In this document: positions 1 to 58,897 of the stretch, in pieces
Position numbering within the stretch: the stretch's first letter is position 1
How the letters are laid out: every line of letters begins with the position of its first letter
Assembly: GCA_951406725.2 (NCBI GenBank)
Contig: OX597819.1
Location: 97,774,001-97,838,000 of the forward strand
Origin: Octopus vulgaris
Taxonomy: Eukaryota
Direction: 5' to 3'
DNA: 64,000 nucleotides
Made by a program: the position numbers and the translations under genes
Notes under the pieces: generated by a model
The model's database searches: none
What the model saw: only the letters and a program-made list of their open reading frames with translations
Told to the model about the DNA's origin: nothing

Positions 1-1049
1 GATTTTCCAGATGTACATCACCGCATATCTCTCCCGCCTCCGCTCTAGGGAGAAGAGGTTTAATACCTTCAGTCTTTCCCAGTAGCTGATATTTTGCATT
101 GAGACGATTTTCTTTGTGTAGTTTCTCTGAATTGCTTCGAGTTCTGCTGTTAGTTTTATATTGTGTGGTGACCACAGTTGGGAGCAGTAGTCCAAGCGGC
201 TGAGGACGAATGTTTTCCATAGGACCATCAGTGTCTCCTTCTCTCTTGTTCTGAAAGTTCGGAGAATCCATCCAGCTAGCCGTCTGCATTTTATCACCAG
301 ATTAGCAATATGCACTTGGAAAGATGCATCATTGTTCATGTCAATGCCCAGGTCACGCACTGATTTTGACTCAGGGATTGCAATTCTTCCTGGGCCAGTG
401 TATCCAGTCTGCACGTCGTTTACCTTTGTGTGCCAGTAGCGCAGGGCCTGGAACTTATCTGCATTAAACTGCATGTTGTTGTCCTCAGCCCACCTGTATA
501 TTGTGTCCAACTCTTGTTGCAGATGCGCAATATTTTCAGGGTTTTGTATTGCGTGGGAGACTTTTGTGTCATCTGCATAGCTAGCAAGGGTGGTCATCGT
601 AGCAACTGAAGGCATGTCTGAAAGGGCCACTATGAACATCAGTGGCCCCAAAACAGTACCCTGTGGGACACCGCTTGTTATTTGTGTTTCCTTGGAGGTG
701 GTTCCATTGCTCACAACTGCCTGTTTTCTGTCTTTTAGGAAGTTGTGCAGCCACTCTCCAAGTTTTCCGCCTATGCCGAGACCACGCAGTTTGTGACAGA
801 TCATACCATGGTCGACCTTATCAAAGGCTTTTGCAAAGTCGAGATATATTACATCCACATTTAAGCCATTTAGTAGCTGTTTCAACACCCAGTCATAGTG
901 TTGCAGGAGCTGTGTTAGGCAGCTTCTACCAGGTCGAAATCCATGCTGGGTGTCAGACAGCAAGTCATTTTCTTCAAGGAACATGATTAGTTTCTTACGG
1001 ACTATTCGTTCCATGACTTTGCTGATGTGTGAGGTCAGAGAGATAGGCC
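1..1049 (-). mobile_element. CR1-clade LINE ORF2 reverse-transcriptase region, 5'-truncated; open frame runs off the left window edge
   Basis: Manual minus-strand translation with no stops: RPISLTSHISKVMERIV...QHGFRPGRSC...VDVIYLDFAKAFDKVDH...SGVPQGTVLGPLMF...YADDTKV...VRDLGI...RLDYCSQLWSP...SLERRRERYAVMYIWKI. Absent from the ORF track because there is no stop inside the window. Confidence 0.93.
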
Positions 1050-1172
1050 TTTCATCCTTTCGGGGTCGATAAATAAAGTACCAATTTCGCACTGGGGTCG
1101 ATGTAATCGACTTAATCCCTTTGTCTGTCCTTGTTTGTCCCCTCTATCTTTAGCCCCTTGTGGGTAGTAAAG

Positions 1173-7597: not shown

Positions 7598-8885
7598 TTG
7601 GGTTGTCCGGAAAGTTCGTGCCGATTTATAGTAGCTTACTTTTCGACTTATTTTAGAACATGGTTGAGCCCATAAAATAGGATTTGACTACACCTTCATT
7701 TAGAGCACAGTTTAAGCTATCTTTTCGTGGAAGAAGGTTTATATTCCTAAAACCTGTGTTAATTCTGTAACCCTTAAAATGGAAGATAAGAAACTTCATT
7801 TTCAGCACTTGATGCTTTTCTTTTTCCGTAAAGAGAAAAAAATGCCTCACAAGCAACCAAAGAAATATGCGCAGGTTATGGTGATGTTTCTTTATCCGAA
7901 AGAACTGTATGGAAGTGGTTCGCAATGTTACGAGTTGGAGATTGTAGCTTTATTGATAAAGAGCGATCAGGCAGACCATCCACTACAGATGATGACCAAA
8001 TCAAGTCATTAATTGAGATTAACCCACCTTGCACAACCCGAGAATTAGCAGAAAGCCTCAGCTTATCAAAAGCGGTTGTTGATGAGCACCTGGTAAAGCT
8101 TGGGTACACAAACCATTACGATGTTTGGGTACCACAAGTGTTGAGTGAGAAGAACTTTTTGGATCGCATTTCCATCTGTGATTCGCTTTATAAACGGAAT
8201 GAAAAGGCGCCTTTTTTTTTAAAGCAAATTGTGACAGGTGATGAGAAATGGATTATCTACCGAAATGTTCAGAGAAAGCGATCCTGGAGTAAGCGACATG
8301 AGCCACCCTTAGTCACTCCAAAAGCGGGCCTTCACCCTAAAAAAGTCTTGCTTTGTGTCTGGTAGGATTGGAAAGGAATTCTGTACTATGAGCTTCTCCC
8401 AAGTAACCAGACAGTTAATTCTGAGAAATACTGCACACAACTGGAAGAGTTAAAAGCAGCAATTCAAGTGAAACGTCCAGAATTGGCCAACAGGAAGGGT
8501 GTTGTTTTCCAACATGATATTGCAAGACCGCATGTTTCTTTGGGAACCAGACAAAAATTGCTGCAGCTCGGCAGGGTTGTGTTACCCCACCCTCCATATT
8601 CACCAGATATTGCTCCTTCGGATTTCGTCTTATTCAGGTCTCTGCAGAATAGTCTTAATGGTAAAAATTTCAATTCCTTGGATGACGTAAAAAGATACTA
8701 TGATGAATTCTTGGACATGAAACCACCTCAATTCTAGGAAGAGGGTATTTTCAAGTTAAAAGGAAAGATAGAGACGCATTGTGAAACAAAATGGTTCATA
8801 TTTGGTTGATTAAAAATGTAATGGCAAATATTTATTGACCTTTTTCTTTCCTTTAAAAATTGGCACGAACTTTCCGGACAACCTA

Positions 8886-13984: not shown

Positions 13985-14612
13985 TAGTGTATTATTAGTT
14001 TCATAAATATAATTCCAATTTTTTCTAGTCTCTTCATTTCTTTATTGACTTGCTTTATCACTGTGAAGGGTGCCATTCGCTTAGGCTTAAATACTGGTAT
14101 GACGTTTTCTTTTATTTGAAAACACGCCTTTGTCTTGGTACACTGACATAATTTTTCGGACAGAACTTCAGAAAAAATAGTTTTTTACTTTTTCTCTCAA
14201 TTCGTCTGACGGCTTGTTTTTACTGGAGGAAAAACCATTTATATTTTTACGGAACAGAATTTATGGGGAGGTCCCACAAATTAAACAATTCCATCCAGTT
14301 AGTACCGAACAGTTTGTTGCATTATTTAAAACAAAAACTTTTGCTTTCAAGGTTTTATCCCAAAATGTAACCTCAGTTATCGTTTCGCCCCAAAAATGTA
14401 ATTTTCTTCCAGAGACACTTTTCGCGACTTTTAAAATTTCCATTAATGTAGGCTTTCTTATTTTTTTCATGTGTCAGTGTTAATAATTGTAATATCACTG
14501 TCTGTATTTAGCGGTAACTCCACGTTCGAAATATAAATTTTTATGTACACAAACTTTCTTTTGTGAGCCACGCCTAGATTTTCCGTTGAGAAAACCTTTC
14601 CACAATTTTTTC
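13985..14612 (-). mobile_element. Gypsy/Ty3 LTR-retrotransposon pol fragment (aspartic protease and start of RT), decayed
   Basis: Minus: ELPLNTDSDITIIN (decayed LDTGSDIT motif), KKIRKPTL...KAKVFVL, FQIKENVIPVFKPKRMAPF...KEMKRLEKIGII; stops and frameshifts. Confidence 0.8.
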
Positions 14613-15355
14613 CGTCCAGTTGAATTCGATGAAGAGCGATTAAACCAACTTTTGCACGAAAATTCTCGTCAAATGACAAGGGAACTGGCAGAGAAAATGG
14701 TATGCTCCCATATTGCTATAGAGAAGCATCTTCACTTGATGGGAAAGTTTCAGAAGTATGGAGCATGGGTTCCGCATGCTTTAAGTGACAACAAAAGTGA
14801 ACGAGCCAAAATCTCCGTTGGTCTGCTTACTCTTCACCGCTCAACTCATGGACACAAGCAACGATTTCTTTACCGAATCGTTACTGGCGACGAAAAATGG
14901 TGCCTGTACAGCAATATGAAGCAGCATAAGGAATGGCTTAGCCCCAGTAAACAAGCGACACCGCGCGTGAAACAAGATCTTCATCCGCGTAAAACGATGT
15001 TGTGCGTATGGTGGGACTGGGAAGGGATTATCCATTACGAATTGCTTGAACGGAACCAAACAGTCAACGCGGAACTCTATGTTCAACAGATGGAACGACT
15101 CAACACGGCTATTCAAGAGAAAAGACCTAATCGGCAGCATGGAGTTCTTCTGCTGCACGACAACGCCCGCCCTCATATAGCCAATATGACTGGGAAGTGC
15201 TGCCACACCCACCGTACTCTCCTGATTTAGCACCAACGGATTTCCACCTCTTTCGATCTCTTTCAAATGCTATGCGCGGAGTTTCGTTGTTATTTTTTAT
15301 TACACTTTTAAAAAATTACATTTTAAAAACGGCGGGAACTTAGTTGCCAACCCAA
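14613..15355 (+). mobile_element. Mariner transposon, left-truncated, with internal deletions and intact right TIR
   Basis: RPVEFDEERL, WVPHAL, IVTGDEKW, LCVWWDWEG, HDNARPH, then PHPPYSPDLAPTDF in a shifted frame; right TIR ggcgggaacttagttgccaacccaa + TA. Confidence 0.92.
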
Positions 15356-15357
15356 TA

Positions 15358-17600
15358 GCTGAAAATCATTTATATCCTCGAATATTGACCACTGCATCAT
15401 GAAGAAATTCAATTATTTAGTCTCAAAACATTATAACTCCTTCACTTCTAATGAAAGGGACTATATTACCAATTTTGATTCAAAATCCAGAAATTTCTAT
15501 GGCTTACCTAAAATACTTAAGTCGAAAGAAATACAAAACGCTATAAAGGAACAAGATAGTGTATACATAAAATTACTACAACCAAAAGACCTGAAACTAA
15601 GACCCATTGCAGCTGGTCCAGGCTGGCCTACACATCGTCTGAGTAACCTCATTAACACTATCCTAAAACCACTATGTAGCCACATACCCAGTTTCATTCG
15701 GGATGACATCGATTTCCTGCCACATTTGCCCAAAACAACAGAATCCGACTCACTGTTAATTTTGCTGTAACAAACTTATATACGAGCATTCCACATGATT
15801 TGGGAATTACTACCATAAAATACTGGGTCGAGAAACATAGAGAAGCGATTCCCGGTAGATTTACTGTAACCTTCATACTAGACACCACTTGCCTCATCCT
15901 CGAAAACAATATAATCCTTTTCAACGGAAAAAAAACTACCTCCAAATTCGAGGCAAAGCTATGGGGACGCGATTTGCTCCAGTCTTCGTGAACTCAGTAT
16001 TGAGATACTTAGAACAAAACCTATATTAAAAAATTGAAGAGAATTATGGCATGGCCTTTAGAAGACATATAGAGGACACATGGAAAAGTTATCTCGATGA
16101 TTGTTTACCAATTTGGACCAAATCCCTAGAAAATCTGGAAGAATTCAACATCCTCCTCAACAATCTATTCCCCAGTCTTAAATTCACAAGAGAAATGAGC
16201 AACACACAACTACCATTTCTTAACATAATGGTAATTAAAACAACATCACAATCACAGCTGATATTCTGATAATTATTACAAAAGCACAGATACACACCAG
16301 TACACACACAAAACCCAACATACCGTACTGTCTAGCCAGGAAAATTTATACTATAGTAGATGATCCAAATACCAGGAACATACGACCTATAGAACTCAAA
16401 AGATTTGAGTTATAGAACTCAAATTACCCTCTCCTACTTATAGAAAATAGCATATAACAAGCAAAAGAAATACCTGTAGAACAACTTAGAGCAACACGAG
16501 AACGACGTACCCATCAACGGAACACAATACCACTTCTAGTAACACACAATTCGCATCACCAAAACATTTTTAACATCATCAAAACAAATTTGTCAATCAT
16601 GAAACAAAGTGAAAAATTTAAAAGCATAATAACTAATCAAACAAAATATTAAAAAGCATAATAACTAATCAAACAGAAAGCAACCACATAACCTAAAGAA
16701 ACTATTAACAAAGGCAAAATTCAATATGAACAAACAGGATAAAACATTCACAGTTTCCAAGTGTAATGACAACAGATGTGGAACGTGTCAATACTGGTAG
16801 ATCCATTAGAACAAAAATTGAATAGATTTTCGTAAATGCACTTATGAACTGCAAAAGCAGAAATTTGATCTACTGCATTAAACGCCCGAATTGCGAGGAA
16901 CTATATATTAGCGAGACAGGGAATGCATTATCGGAACGCTCACCAGTCCACAGGCAACAAATCCAGAATTCCATTGAGCGAGCATATGGAAACATGTTGT
17001 CAGAAAGTGCTTCTAATTTTTTCTTTTCCACAAATACAAGTGAGGGTGGAAGAAAGTTAAAAGAAAAACGGTTTATTAAAATGTTCTAAACGGAAATAAC
17101 AACAATAATATACCAACCAGTTAATGATGTTGATTAAAAAATATCTTTAACATATGAATATAAACAAATTATAGAAGACTCCCATCATTTGAGATAAAAA
17201 CGATCGAAACCAACTTAGTTCACTCAGAAAACCATGACATGTAAACCGCAAGTAAATTGGTTAAAATAAAGGCGGGTTCTATGCCAGCAATATCGGTACG
17301 CCGGCAAACTGTGACGTTTAAGCTGCATGTGAAGTGGTAAAAACTGTATTCCAAAAGTTCGGCTTGTTGGAGGCTTCTAAGAGGTACAAATAGGAAGAAG
17401 TCAGTCATTTACTACAGTTATCAAGAACTCAACTGTCAGTTAAATACATTTTGAAATCTGATGATTACTACAAACGTATGAAAGCGCTAATTGAACTTTA
17501 TGGACATTACAAAATATTTTTTTAATGTTTAGCTCACTTCAACATTATAAAAAAGTATAGTTTTTTAAATATAATAAAAAACGTGGAGACCAGACCATGA
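15358..17600 (+). mobile_element. Penelope-like retroelement (RT + GIY-YIG endonuclease), 5'-truncated and decayed, with 3' UTR
   Basis: FYGLPKI, LRPIAAG, VTNLYTSIP, QIRGKAMGTRFAP, SYLDDC, LPFLNIMV; linker KCNDNRCGTC; NLIYCI...LYISETG...HRQQI (GIY-YIG); many frameshifts. Confidence 0.9.
17455..17492 (+). ncRNA. Minimal hammerhead-ribozyme motif in the Penelope 3' terminal region
   Basis: AAU-CUGAUGA-UUAC uacaaac GUAU-GAAA-GCGC-UA-AUU; palindromic stem III AGCGCU; sense orientation relative to the Penelope ORF. Confidence 0.7.
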
Positions 17601-39368: not shown

Positions 39369-39416
<48 letters not shown>

Positions 39417-39449
39417 CAATTTCTTTCTTTTGTTATCTTACCGTTTTAT

Positions 39450-39530
<81 letters not shown>

Positions 39531-53172: not shown

Positions 53173-55241
53173 GGCTGTAAAGACCAACTACTCATCAATA
53201 AGATGATCTTAGAAGATTGTTCAGGAAATGCCTGAAAATGTATAAGATAGCACCTACTCTGCGAAACTTCTTGATTGTAAGTATGAGATCATGGAGACCC
53301 ACACTAACTCTGAACAGTGACAATGAATCCCTAAATGCTGGTGATGTAAAAATTTCGTGTGGCATTTTCCAGGGTGACTCACTGTCACCACTCCTCTTTT
53401 GTTTATCCTTAATACCTCTCTCAAAGCTGCTCGATGACGCGCAGTACGGGTATAAAATGTTTGATAAAAATATAAATCATCTTATTTACATGGATGATTT
53501 AAAGCTTTTTGCAAAAAATGACCAACAACTCAAAGGCTTACTAGCGATAGTCAAACAATTCAGTGACGACATCAGAATGCAATTCGGCCTCGATAAATGT
53601 GCAAAAGCTACCTTTATCAAAGGAAAAATGACAGAAACATCTAACGTTAACCTTGACCAGCAGAATGTCATAAAAGAACTAGACCCAGCGGAGAGCTACA
53701 AGTATCTAGGGGTAATTGAAGGGAACGGAATAAGGCATTCAGAGATGAAGGAAAGGTTCAGGAGAGAATGCTATCGAAGAGTGAGAGCAATACTCAAGAC
53801 AGAGCTGAATGCAAGAAACAGGATCGAAGCGATCAATGCATTAGCCATACCAGTCGTGACTTACAGTTTCAATATTGTTAACTGGTCAATTACTGAAATA
53901 TGTCAGCTCGACAGAAAAATAAGGAAACTGTTGACTATGCATAGAATGCACCACCCTAAGGCAGATACAGAACGACTCTATCTGCCAAGAAAAGAAGGAG
54001 GCCGTGGTCTTTTGCAACTGGCAATAACAATGAAGATTACTACAATTGGCCTAGACACCTACCTGAAAAACTCTGAGGACTGGATGTTAAAACTTGTCTC
54101 AAAACATGAAAACAAGAAAGCATCATACTCAGTCACAAAACAGGCAAAGGAATATCTAAGTGAATTCCGAATACAACCAATTTCGGAATTAGAGATAGAC
54201 ATACAAGAAACAAGCACAGAAAAAGCTAGGCGCATGAAAACCCGTGCCAAAACTGCGGCCTTAGATATTCTGAATAATAAATGGCAAGAAAAACCTCTCT
54301 ATGGCAAATACCCAAAGAGAGCGAATAATTCAGATATTGACAAAGCCCTGACCCATCAATGGCTAATGGCCTCTGGCTTAAAATCTGAAACAGAGGGGTT
54401 TATCATAGCAGATCAAGATCAATGCCTACCAACAAGAAACTACCAGGCCAACATATTAAAGAACGGCAGTAGCCCAACATGTCGTGTATGCCGACAACAA
54501 AATGAAACTATTGATCATGTTGTCTCCAAATGCAGTCTTCTAGCGCCTACAGAGTACCTCAACAGGCATGATAGAGCTGCACAATATATTCACTGGGTAA
54601 TTTGCAAAAACCTGGATTTGCCCCATGAAAAAAACTGGTGGGAACACAATCCACCTCCAGTGCTTGAAAATGACCACATCTCACTCCTCTGTCACTTCAC
54701 CATTCAAACTGACAGGAAGATAGATGCAAATAGGCCAGACATCACATTGAAAGACTTCAGACAAAGAACATGCCTCCTCAATTGATATGACTGTCCCAAT
54801 CGATATAAACGTATCTGTCAAGACCTACCAAAAACTGAGCAAATATAAAGATCTTGAAATAGAAATCAGCAAAATGTGGAAGCTGAAGACTAAAACAATA
54901 CCTGTTGTCATAGGTGCCCTGGGAATGATAGTGAAAGGGACTGATTGCTACCTAACTCAGATACCAGGAAACCCCAAAATGGCAGAAATTCAAAAGATAG
55001 TGCTCATGGGAACTGCTCATATCCTACGCAAAATACTCTCTATGTAATCCCAAGGTTTAAAACAAACTTTTTTTTATTTATTTATTTATTTTATTTTATT
55101 TTTATGTATTAGACATTCACTAGTACAACACCAAAAAAAAAAACCCTAAATATATGGCACAGAACTTCCAACCTGTTGTCTCTTGAGGTCTCTGGGTGAG
55201 ACTTGGAACCAACTTTTACAGACATAAAGCAAAAGTCAAAC

Positions 55242-57781: not shown

Positions 57782-57957
57782 CCTTTCTCTCGACGTATAT
57801 AAATATATATTCTCTTACTTGTTGCGTAGGACGTAAACACACCAACACCGGTAGTCAAGCGGTGGTGTGGGACAAACACAGACACAACGACACACACTCA
57901 GGCACTCATGTGTGGGAATGGGTGTGTGTGAGTGCATGCAAGTGCGTGTATATATAA

Positions 57958-58033
<76 letters not shown>

Positions 58034-58105
58034 CGGGCTTCTTGCTGTTTCCATCTACCAAATCCACTAAAAAGTCTTTTAGTAAACACAAGTCTATGCA
58101 TAAAT

Positions 58106-58176
<71 letters not shown>

Positions 58177-58180
<4 letters not shown>

Positions 58181-58394
58181 AATGTAATATGTGACAATTA
58201 TTCGGTAGCCATGATAAAACTCCGAGTTTCGGATGCCGAGGTGGAAATCCATGCCGCCATCTCTTCAGTTATCCGGCCATGAAAAATCCGATGGCCGGAT
58301 AACTGAAGAGATGGCGGCATGGATTTCCACCTCGGCATCCGAAACTCGGAGTTTTATCATGGCTACCGAATAATTGTCACATATTACATTTACA
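58177..58394. repeat. Perfect inverted repeat (104-bp arms, 10-nt loop) with a hammerhead motif in each arm
   Basis: 58177-58280 is the exact reverse complement of 58291-58394; + strand 58298-58358 GAUAA-CUGAAGA-GAUG...CAUC-C-GAAACU cgg AGU-U-UUAUC. Confidence 0.92.
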
Positions 58395-58499
58395 AATAAA
58401 TTCCTCTATTTACATAATATCGAGGTCTCTTTCTTTCTTTTGTTGTCTTACCATTTTTATCAATATACATACATACATATATATCTCTCTTTCTCTCTT

Positions 58500-58897
58500 T
58501 TCTCTTTTACTTGTTTCAGTCATTTGACTGCGGCCATGCTGGAGCACCGCCTTTAATCGAGCAACTCGACCCCGGGACTTATTCTTTGTAAGCCCAGTAC
58601 TTATTCTATCGGTCTCTTTTTTGCCGAACCGCTAAGTGACGGGGACGTAAACACACCAGCATCGGTTGTCAAGCAATGCTAGGGAAACAAACACAGACAC
58701 ACAAACAAACACATATATATATATACATATATACGACAGGCTTCTTTGAGTTTCCGTCTACCAAATCCACTCACAAGGCATTGGTCGGCCCGGGGCTATA
58801 GCAGAAGACACTTGCCCAAGATGCCACGCAGTGGGACTGAACCCGGAACCATGTGGTTGGTTAGCAAGCTACTTACCACACAGCCACTCCTGCGCCT
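58500..58897 (-). mobile_element. CORE-like SINE family A, full length, young
   Basis: Near identical to 31869-32268. Confidence 0.9.

What the first reader, a model, noticed from the sequence alone, without database searches (positions are those of the whole stretch)
58177..58465. Perfect 104-bp-arm palindrome encoding divergent hammerhead ribozymes
Seen: zero mismatches between arms, 10-nt loop, (TA)n on the left and a ~70-bp unique tail on the right. Each strand encodes GAUAA-CUGAAGA-stem II-GAAACU(cgg)AGU-U-UUAUC, so a transcript from either direction contains a ribozyme preceded by its exact antisense. Inference: a very young Penelope-type inverted terminus with no ORF (non-autonomous). 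The full hairpin would sequester the ribozyme and be a Dicer/ADAR substrate, giving a possible cleavage-versus-silencing switch; the DNA could extrude a cruciform.
Basis: partly seen in the sequence, partly recalled or inferred. Interest (0 to 1): 0.7.

Follow-up and report, generated by a model that had tools for sequence, protein, structure and literature searches.

The report
Back-to-back Penelope stub with hammerheads
The perfect palindrome is real, but it is one of many short back-to-back stubs of a Penelope-type jumping gene in what is likely an octopus genome, each arm carrying a predicted self-cutting RNA motif; it is likely an ordinary insertion by-product and likely not a regulatory switch.

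Summary
Observation confirmed: exact 104-bp arms, 10-nt loop, (TA)n flank, 71-bp tail, a type I hammerhead motif on each strand. The unit is the terminal repeat (pLTR) plus tail of an abundant Hydra-clade Penelope-like family ('A'): 444 arms lie within 3 mismatches of an 85-nt probe, and 39 other loci repeat the whole two-arm layout. 56 of 58 head-to-head pairs have one tailed and one untailed arm, fitting two reverse-transcription starts. Family A looks old (arms differ about 6%; no intact coding copy among six examined); a sister family B (pLTR 85% identical) has intact RT/GIY-YIG frames. 'Very young' is not required: about 0.26 perfect pairs are expected by chance among roughly 180. A cleavage-versus-silencing switch is unsupported: in the full hairpin the ribozyme helices have predicted probability 0, and the two ribozymes lie on opposite strands. 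Inverted pLTR plus tail is published Penelope anatomy, and this scan already reported the same system on other DNA (e1-8669363, e1-9536500, e1-9957499). Reads did not settle artefact or polymorphism. Verdict: new member of a known kind, low interest.

The parts
58130..58176 (.). (TA)n microsatellite, left part of the likely target site
   Evidence: sequence; TA-type runs flank 46 of 58 untailed and 43 of 49 tailed ends in the family pairs
58177..58280 (-). Untailed pLTR copy (unit positions 1-104); its outer end at position 104 is one of the family's recurrent untailed ends
   Evidence: ends called at 104 in 22 arms, at 108 in 36, at 175 in 38
58206..58279 (-). Type I hammerhead motif, minus strand; predicted cut after 58218
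   Evidence: motif anatomy; cleavage untested
58281..58290 (.). Head-to-head junction (loop) made of pLTR sequence from both orientations; L005 has nearly the same junction
58291..58394 (+). pLTR copy (unit positions 1-104), tailed arm
58292..58365 (+). Type I hammerhead motif: stem I, core CUGAAGA 58303-58309, long imperfect stem II, extra C 58340, GAAA 58341-58344, palindromic stem III 58344-58352, GUU triplet, predicted cut after 58353
58395..58465 (+). 71-nt Penelope 'tail', family sequence that continues into the element's 5' region and ORF in tandem copies
58466..58485 (.). TA-rich right flank

Best explanation
The element is two short head-to-head copies of the hammerhead-bearing terminal repeat of a Hydra-clade Penelope-like retrotransposon inside a (TA)n run, likely made in one insertion when reverse transcription was primed from both cut target strands, once at the tail end and once about 70 nt further in. 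Shown: family membership, copy architecture, the one-tail rule, shared template variants between arms, and the sister family's intact RT/GIY-YIG frame. Inferred: the GIY-YIG domain nicked both strands of (TA)n; one cDNA began at unit position 175 and the other at 104/108; both stopped just upstream of the ribozyme (possibly the RNA's 5' end) and were joined there. The perfect symmetry is most likely the low tail of a Poisson distribution among about 180 sibling pairs, perhaps helped by late insertion. The ribozymes are likely passengers, inactive in any read-through RNA.
For: Family: 812 candidates, 40 scored, the 39 other loci 95-98% identical over the arm plus tail. 444 arms within 3 mismatches of an 85-nt probe, control 0. 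39 of 39 other scored loci align across both arms at 88-95%. 32 of 47 probe-selected loci have a head-to-head partner. One tailed plus one untailed arm in 56 of 58 pairs, in 20 of 22 in the probe-selected set (p=5e-5 against independent choice) and in 15 of 17 family B pairs. Untailed ends also occur in solo copies (L092, L106, L109, L110). Arms of one locus share derived bases 50 times against 10.4 +/- 3.0 in permutations. The ratio of shared bases to arm-arm mismatches is 1.0 in young family B and about 0.1 in family A, so sharing was likely set at insertion. Family B has 717-codon open frames in 9 of 20 fetched loci with the Hydra motifs. Frangieh et al. 2024 (PMC11167929, parts 1-2 of 4 read): a PLE protein cuts and extends both strands and starts at two internal sites that bound the tail.
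Against: No read evidence for this locus. No intact family A parent among six coding copies examined, so the link to a protein is by sister family and broken copies. Chance perfection is only about a 1-in-4 event (0.26 expected; none of 47 full-overlap sibling pairs had fewer than 2 mismatches), and the pair count is a rough estimate from biased samples. The fold shows no two-sided compensatory change and does not beat shuffles. Arkhipova et al. 2013 (PMC3846280, passages) explain such palindromes by self-priming instead.
Confidence: 0.8

Rival explanations
1. Same origin, but a truly recent insertion: an old family A repeat was mobilised in trans by the young family B protein, so the arms have had no time to diverge.
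For: Family B arms differ by 0.19% (49 of 25,894 bp), so zero mismatches in 104 bp would be normal at that age. The tail and its end site are nearly the same in A and B. The window copy differs from the A majority at only 2 of 175 positions.
Against: A recent copy should have a near-identical source, yet only two other arms carry the exact 85-nt haplotype and neither continues into the same tail. Partners of near-consensus arms average 3.7% divergence, so no young class of A copies shows.
Confidence: 0.3
2. An old insertion whose arms were recently made identical by hairpin or cruciform-mediated gene conversion.
For: Both arms carry the same derived CpG-type change at position 29; siblings share derived bases in excess; the loop is short and the predicted DNA hairpin is -136 kcal/mol.
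Against: Siblings with equally short spacers keep several mismatches (L005 has 10). Sharing relative to mismatches is about tenfold lower in the older family. A converted old copy would be expected to hold 3-4 shared changes, not 1.
Confidence: 0.15
3. The second arm arose by fold-back (self-priming) of one cDNA rather than by a second priming on RNA.
For: Arms usually share template variants; proposed in print for PLE palindromes (PMC3846280, passages).
Against: The untailed end is the same fixed site seen in solo copies. In L094 one arm alone carries three recurrent variants (33T, 42C, 45A), which suggests two templates; this is one clear locus.
Confidence: 0.15
4. Assembly fold-back artefact.
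For: Zero mismatches; no second haplotype in G000 to compare.
Against: The mirror stops at the family's untailed end and does not run into the tail or flank; the loop is family sequence; 57 sibling pairs with unequal arms sit in the same assembly.
Confidence: 0.04
5. A functional cleavage-versus-silencing RNA switch.
For: A read-through RNA would form a 104-bp duplex of about -203 kcal/mol.
Against: All ribozyme helices have probability 0.0 in the full RNA. The antisense arm is transcribed first in either direction. The two ribozymes cannot share one RNA, and stem III has probability 0.03 as a monomer. None of 82 open frames scanned from the window matched a host-gene Pfam family; the five with hits were transposon domains, though short exons would be missed.
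Confidence: 0.03

Closest known systems
Hydra-clade Penelope-like elements, in particular Hydra-1_Obim of Octopus bimaculoides (Craig et al. 2021, PMC8557442; passages, section 11, supplement part 2 and search hits seen)
   Same: Element under 3 kb with one ORF of 708 aa (709 in Hydra-1_Obim); RWK, DKT, CxCx5C, CxxC and CxH motifs; (TA)n target; hammerhead with a 4-bp palindromic stem III and 1-nt loop (same ACTC-G-GAGT as Hydra-2_aMil and Penelope-16_HM); inverted 5'-truncated copy plus tail.
   Different: A different family: by eye the proteins are clearly homologous but not identical (not aligned with a tool) and the ribozyme sequence differs. The tail is about 70 nt against 30-40 nt in the paper. 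Stem II is long and imperfect with a 1-nt bulge next to GAAA. The young sister family reads CCGAAGA in the core.
Inverted-pLTR insertions with optional tail in Adineta vaga Penelope elements (Arkhipova et al. 2013, PMC3846280; passages)
   Same: Head-to-head pLTRs, tail on one arm, palindromic junctions, AT-rich targets.
   Different: No ORF between the repeats here; no target-site duplication can be read inside (TA)n.
PAc (Poseidon) of Anolis, in vitro mechanism (Frangieh et al. 2024, PMC11167929; parts 1-2 of 4)
   Same: Two reverse-transcription start sites that bound the tail; both strands cut and extended; AT-rich target.
   Different: Different clade; here the tail lies upstream of the ATG and the ribozyme does not overlap the start codon.
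[quoted passage not shown]
   Same: Type I topology, long helix II, small palindromic helix III, pairs of motifs on opposite strands 100-700 bp apart already reported.
   Different: The extra nucleotide is on the 3' side of helix II, not between positions 9 and 10.1.
Non-LTR retrozymes (bioRxiv 10.64898/2026.07.22.740005; part 1 of 5)
   Same: Non-coding, type I hammerhead, derived from PLE pLTRs.
   Different: Retrozymes are head-to-tail tandem arrays; this is a single head-to-head pair.

Membership tests
EN+ Penelope-like element (pLTR stub) | Unit is the repeat flanking an RT + GIY-YIG ORF | tested here: met
   Unit 84.5% identical to both flanking repeats of 717-codon frames; 91-95% copies adjoin broken homologous coding sequence. 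Pfam gave no hit on the B protein itself; GIY-YIG hit 2 of 57 aligned members weakly; Atlas neighbours carry GIY-YIG and RVT_1.
EN+ Penelope-like element (pLTR stub) | Inverted 5'-truncated copy with tail on one end | tested here: met
   56 of 58 pairs
EN+ Penelope-like element (pLTR stub) | Target-site duplication | tested here: inconclusive
   Both ends lie in TA-rich simple sequence
Hydra clade | RWK, DKT, CxCx5C linker, CxxC and CxH, no CCHH, C-terminal endonuclease, element under 3 kb | tested here: met
   In the sister family B protein: KRMRWK 34, FSDKT 112, CSCRNKELC 557, CGLC 660, CPH 691; no cysteines between the two halves of the GIY-YIG-like motif, read by eye (definition); monomer 2.59 kb
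Hydra clade | (TA)n insertion preference | tested here: met
Hydra clade | Placement in an RT phylogeny with reference Hydra proteins | not tested
   The reference proteins were seen only as paper text
Type I hammerhead ribozyme | Core CUGANGA / GAAA / NUH with three stems | tested here: met
   one extra nucleotide before GAAA
Type I hammerhead ribozyme | Covariation support for the fold | tested here: inconclusive
   93% of 248 cells paired against 35-53% when slid; 7 pairs vary on one side only, 0 on both; shuffles not exceeded; 10 close relatives only
Type I hammerhead ribozyme | Match to an Rfam hammerhead model | tested here: not met
Type I hammerhead ribozyme | Self-cleavage | not testable with these tools
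   Needs an in vitro assay
Non-LTR retrozyme | Head-to-tail tandem units each with a ribozyme | tested here: not met
   Single head-to-head pair
MITE or self-propagating hairpin element | Copies share one fixed internal junction and length | tested here: not met
   Spacers and junctions differ among the 58 pairs

The most novel reading that the evidence does not exclude
Penelope integration normally uses two coupled cDNAs: each cut target strand is primed at a different one of two fixed RNA start sites (one tailed, one untailed), mostly on RNA from one source but sometimes from two, and the ribozyme's cleavage is dispensable, since the youngest sister family carries a changed core. These octopus palindromes would be a genome-scale record of that step.
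Probability: 0.45. Interest if true: 0.45.

Novelty: new member of a known kind. Interest (0 to 1): 0.18.

Why it matters
This locus matters little by itself. The family statistics bear on an open question, how Penelope-like elements make their inverted ends: the near-strict one-tail rule and the template variants shared between arms fit the two start sites found in vitro. The intact young sister family offers a Hydra-clade protein to test this. The case also warns that a perfect palindrome picked out of hundreds of siblings is weak evidence of youth or function.

Tried and rejected
Reads: one search listed 24 runs; no RNA holder listed. Four runs were laid as contigs; no listed contig bridged the loop in any of the four, which says nothing firm, since hairpins and repeats drop out of such contigs. 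No second haplotype of the flank in G000. A tail-only DNA search returned nothing, likely because its words are too common. Rfam: no hammerhead model matched. Pfam and PDB sequence searches on the B protein were blank or irrelevant. A structure prediction of alignment A1 was still queued and was not collected, so no fold search was run. The first helix table had stem I one base out of register; one search replaces it. A spliced-leader origin (lead from e1-9957499) was checked on the 5' junctions of the short arms: no shared foreign exon is seen. I first read A29 as a subfamily marker; one search showed G29 is the majority, and one search was enriched for A29. Lunse et al. on dimeric PLE hammerheads is not held; it is known to me only through a review's passages (PMC6765202) and may describe the extra-nucleotide variant. 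One search for 'Penelope-like', 'twin priming', 'inverted' gave 2 papers, neither on this by title (listing only). Supplements of the bioRxiv preprint were not seen.

Full report
Observation. The arms 58177-58280 and 58291-58394 are exact reverse complements over 104 nt around a 10-nt loop, the only such perfect non-microsatellite repeat in the window. (TA)n precedes the left arm, and a 71-nt tail follows the right arm and ends in TA-rich sequence. Below, 'unit position' counts from 58291. Each arm, read outward, holds a type I hammerhead motif: stem I (positions 2-12 with 64-75, one bulge), core CUGAAGA, a long imperfect stem II, one extra C, GAAA, stem III ACUCGGAGU and a GUU triplet with the predicted cut after 58353 (+) or 58218 (-). 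Rfam matched nothing in the window at its thresholds and no hammerhead family up to E=10 at the locus.

The family. The window is G000:C6:97,774,001-97,838,000 of a 2.8 Gb genome. Arm plus tail found 812 candidates; the 39 other scored loci are 95-98% identical. An 85-nt probe matched exactly only 2 arms outside this locus and 444 arms within 3 mismatches, control 0. The whole 289-nt element found 1605 candidates, and all 39 other scored loci align across both arms at 88-95%. Of 47 loci picked by the probe alone, 32 have a head-to-head partner within 500 bp, and 34 have their 5' end between positions -29 and +17. So this short palindrome is a common product of the family. In tandem copies the tail runs on into coding sequence (L013, L105).

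The parent. A coding fragment beside one copy (L019) led to 12,257 candidates. Nine of 20 fetched loci hold a 717-codon open frame (708 aa from the first Met) next to or flanked by repeats about 84.5% identical to the window's unit, often with inverted arms 99.4-99.9% alike. I call this family B and the window's family A. The B protein has KRMRWK, FSDKT, YKDD, CxCx5C, CxxC and CxH, the features that define the Hydra clade in Craig et al. 2021 (section 11). It resembles, by eye, their Hydra-1_Obim from an octopus, which is my basis for inferring an octopus host. Their table of Hydra ribozymes shows the same stem III pattern. Pfam and PDB sequence searches on the protein were blank; 1014 homologues were found, and Atlas neighbours carry GIY-YIG and RVT_1. 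Six coding copies with A-like repeats (90% or more to the A majority) were broken or only partly captured, with the longest open frame 146-220 aa. No intact A parent was found.

How it likely formed. Among 100 distinct family A loci, 58 have head-to-head arms overlapping by 50 nt or more; 56 have exactly one tailed arm, 2 have none, none has two. Two of the three samples favour tailed copies, but the probe-selected set does not, and gives 20 of 22 (p=5e-5); family B gives 15 of 17. Arm ends pile up at positions 104, 108 and 175, mostly against TA runs, and solo copies end at the same untailed site. Frangieh et al. 2024 showed in vitro that a PLE protein cuts and extends both strands of AT-rich DNA and starts at two internal RNA sites that bound the tail. 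I infer that one target strand was primed at 175 and the other at 104, both cDNAs ended just upstream of the ribozyme, and they were joined there. The two arms of a locus share derived bases far above chance (50 against 10.4 +/- 3.0; non-CpG 24 against 2.2; window and position 29 left out), so they mostly come from one source. L094 has three recurrent variants on one arm only, a hint of two templates. Self-priming, proposed by Arkhipova et al. 2013, is not excluded.

Is it very young? The family majority has G at position 29, part of a CpG; both window arms have A. The copy differs from the majority at 2 of 175 positions. In 47 sibling pairs with near-full overlap, arm-to-arm mismatches average 6.6 per 104 nt, variance 6.9, minimum 2; P(0) is about 0.0015. 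One shorter pair has 0 in 60 (L116). Partners of near-consensus arms still average 3.7% divergence, so no young class shows. With roughly 1000 arms and 180 full pairs (a rough estimate from the probe counts), about 0.26 perfect pairs are expected by chance, and this locus was flagged because it is perfect. Family B arms differ by 0.19%. At the rate quoted for another octopus (0.0036 per million years; PMC13282606, passages), A would be of the order of 10 million years old, inflated by CpG decay, and B under 1 million. My odds for the symmetry are about 50% luck or late burst, 30% recent mobilisation by B, 15% conversion and 5% artefact. Conversion is weakened because sharing relative to mismatch is 1.0 in B and about 0.1 in A. 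Reads did not decide (see Tried and rejected).

The ribozyme and the switch idea. Across 10 related repeats the fold is kept in 93% of cells, with seven one-sided changes and no two-sided change, and does not beat shuffles. It is therefore a motif-level call, backed by the clade. Alone, positions 2-76 form stems I and II (0.64-0.99) but hardly stem III (0.03); with the tail attached stem I is lost in the prediction; in the whole palindrome all helices are 0.0 against a hairpin of -203 kcal/mol. PLE hammerheads of this type were reported to need dimers and to cleave weakly (PMC4209133), and in PAc cleavage was not needed for insertion in vitro. The two motifs here lie on opposite strands, and the antisense arm comes first in either direction. 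Family B reads CCGAAGA in the core. A read-through RNA would be a fixed duplex; nothing points to a regulated alternative. Of 82 open frames scanned (out of 259 that passed my filter), five hit Pfam, all transposon domains.

What is known. Inverted 5'-truncated copies with a tail on one end are textbook PLE anatomy (PMC8557442; PMC3846280), and opposite-strand ribozyme pairs were noted in 2014. Earlier notes of this scan describe the same system in this and other genomes; they are unchecked AI notes and are not counted as support. The finding is a new member of a known kind. What is added is quantitative: the one-tail rule, the shared template variants, and the result that perfect symmetry does not need youth.

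Noticed in passing
L061-L080 (G000, several contigs): Young family B: intact 708-aa frames, kilobase inverted arms 99.4-99.9% alike, median 0.25% from its majority; its hammerhead core reads CCGAAGA or CCGAUGA instead of CUGANGA.
   Followed up: partly
window 39414-39454: Short family B-type tail fragment between two (TA)n runs.
   Followed up: partly
family A, unit positions -29 to +17: 34 of 47 probe-selected copies end here at their 5' side; a TCATTT initiator-like word (consensus recalled) lies at about -22, a possible transcription start.
   Followed up: partly
L013:1480-2022 (oriented), L023, L103, L108: pLTR plus tail joined to the first part of the ORF and then to a second pLTR; short internally truncated tandems.
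   Followed up: no
L036, L039, L040, L046: Family B variant with a 3-nt shorter stem II that still pairs by eye in a shifted register.
   Followed up: no
L143:496-718 and L154:1194-1418: Family B repeats inserted within about 0.8 kb and 60 bp of family A palindromes.
   Followed up: no
window 58500-58880 and 57820-58080: Very high-copy SINE-like repeats on both sides of the palindrome (depth).
   Followed up: no
window 1-1143, 53202-54782, 7832-8734, 14493-15227: LINE reverse-transcriptase frames (RVT_1) and mariner-type transposase fragments.
   Followed up: no
window 15363-15767: 135-aa frame that looks by eye like a fragment of another Penelope-type reverse transcriptase; no Pfam hit.
   Followed up: no
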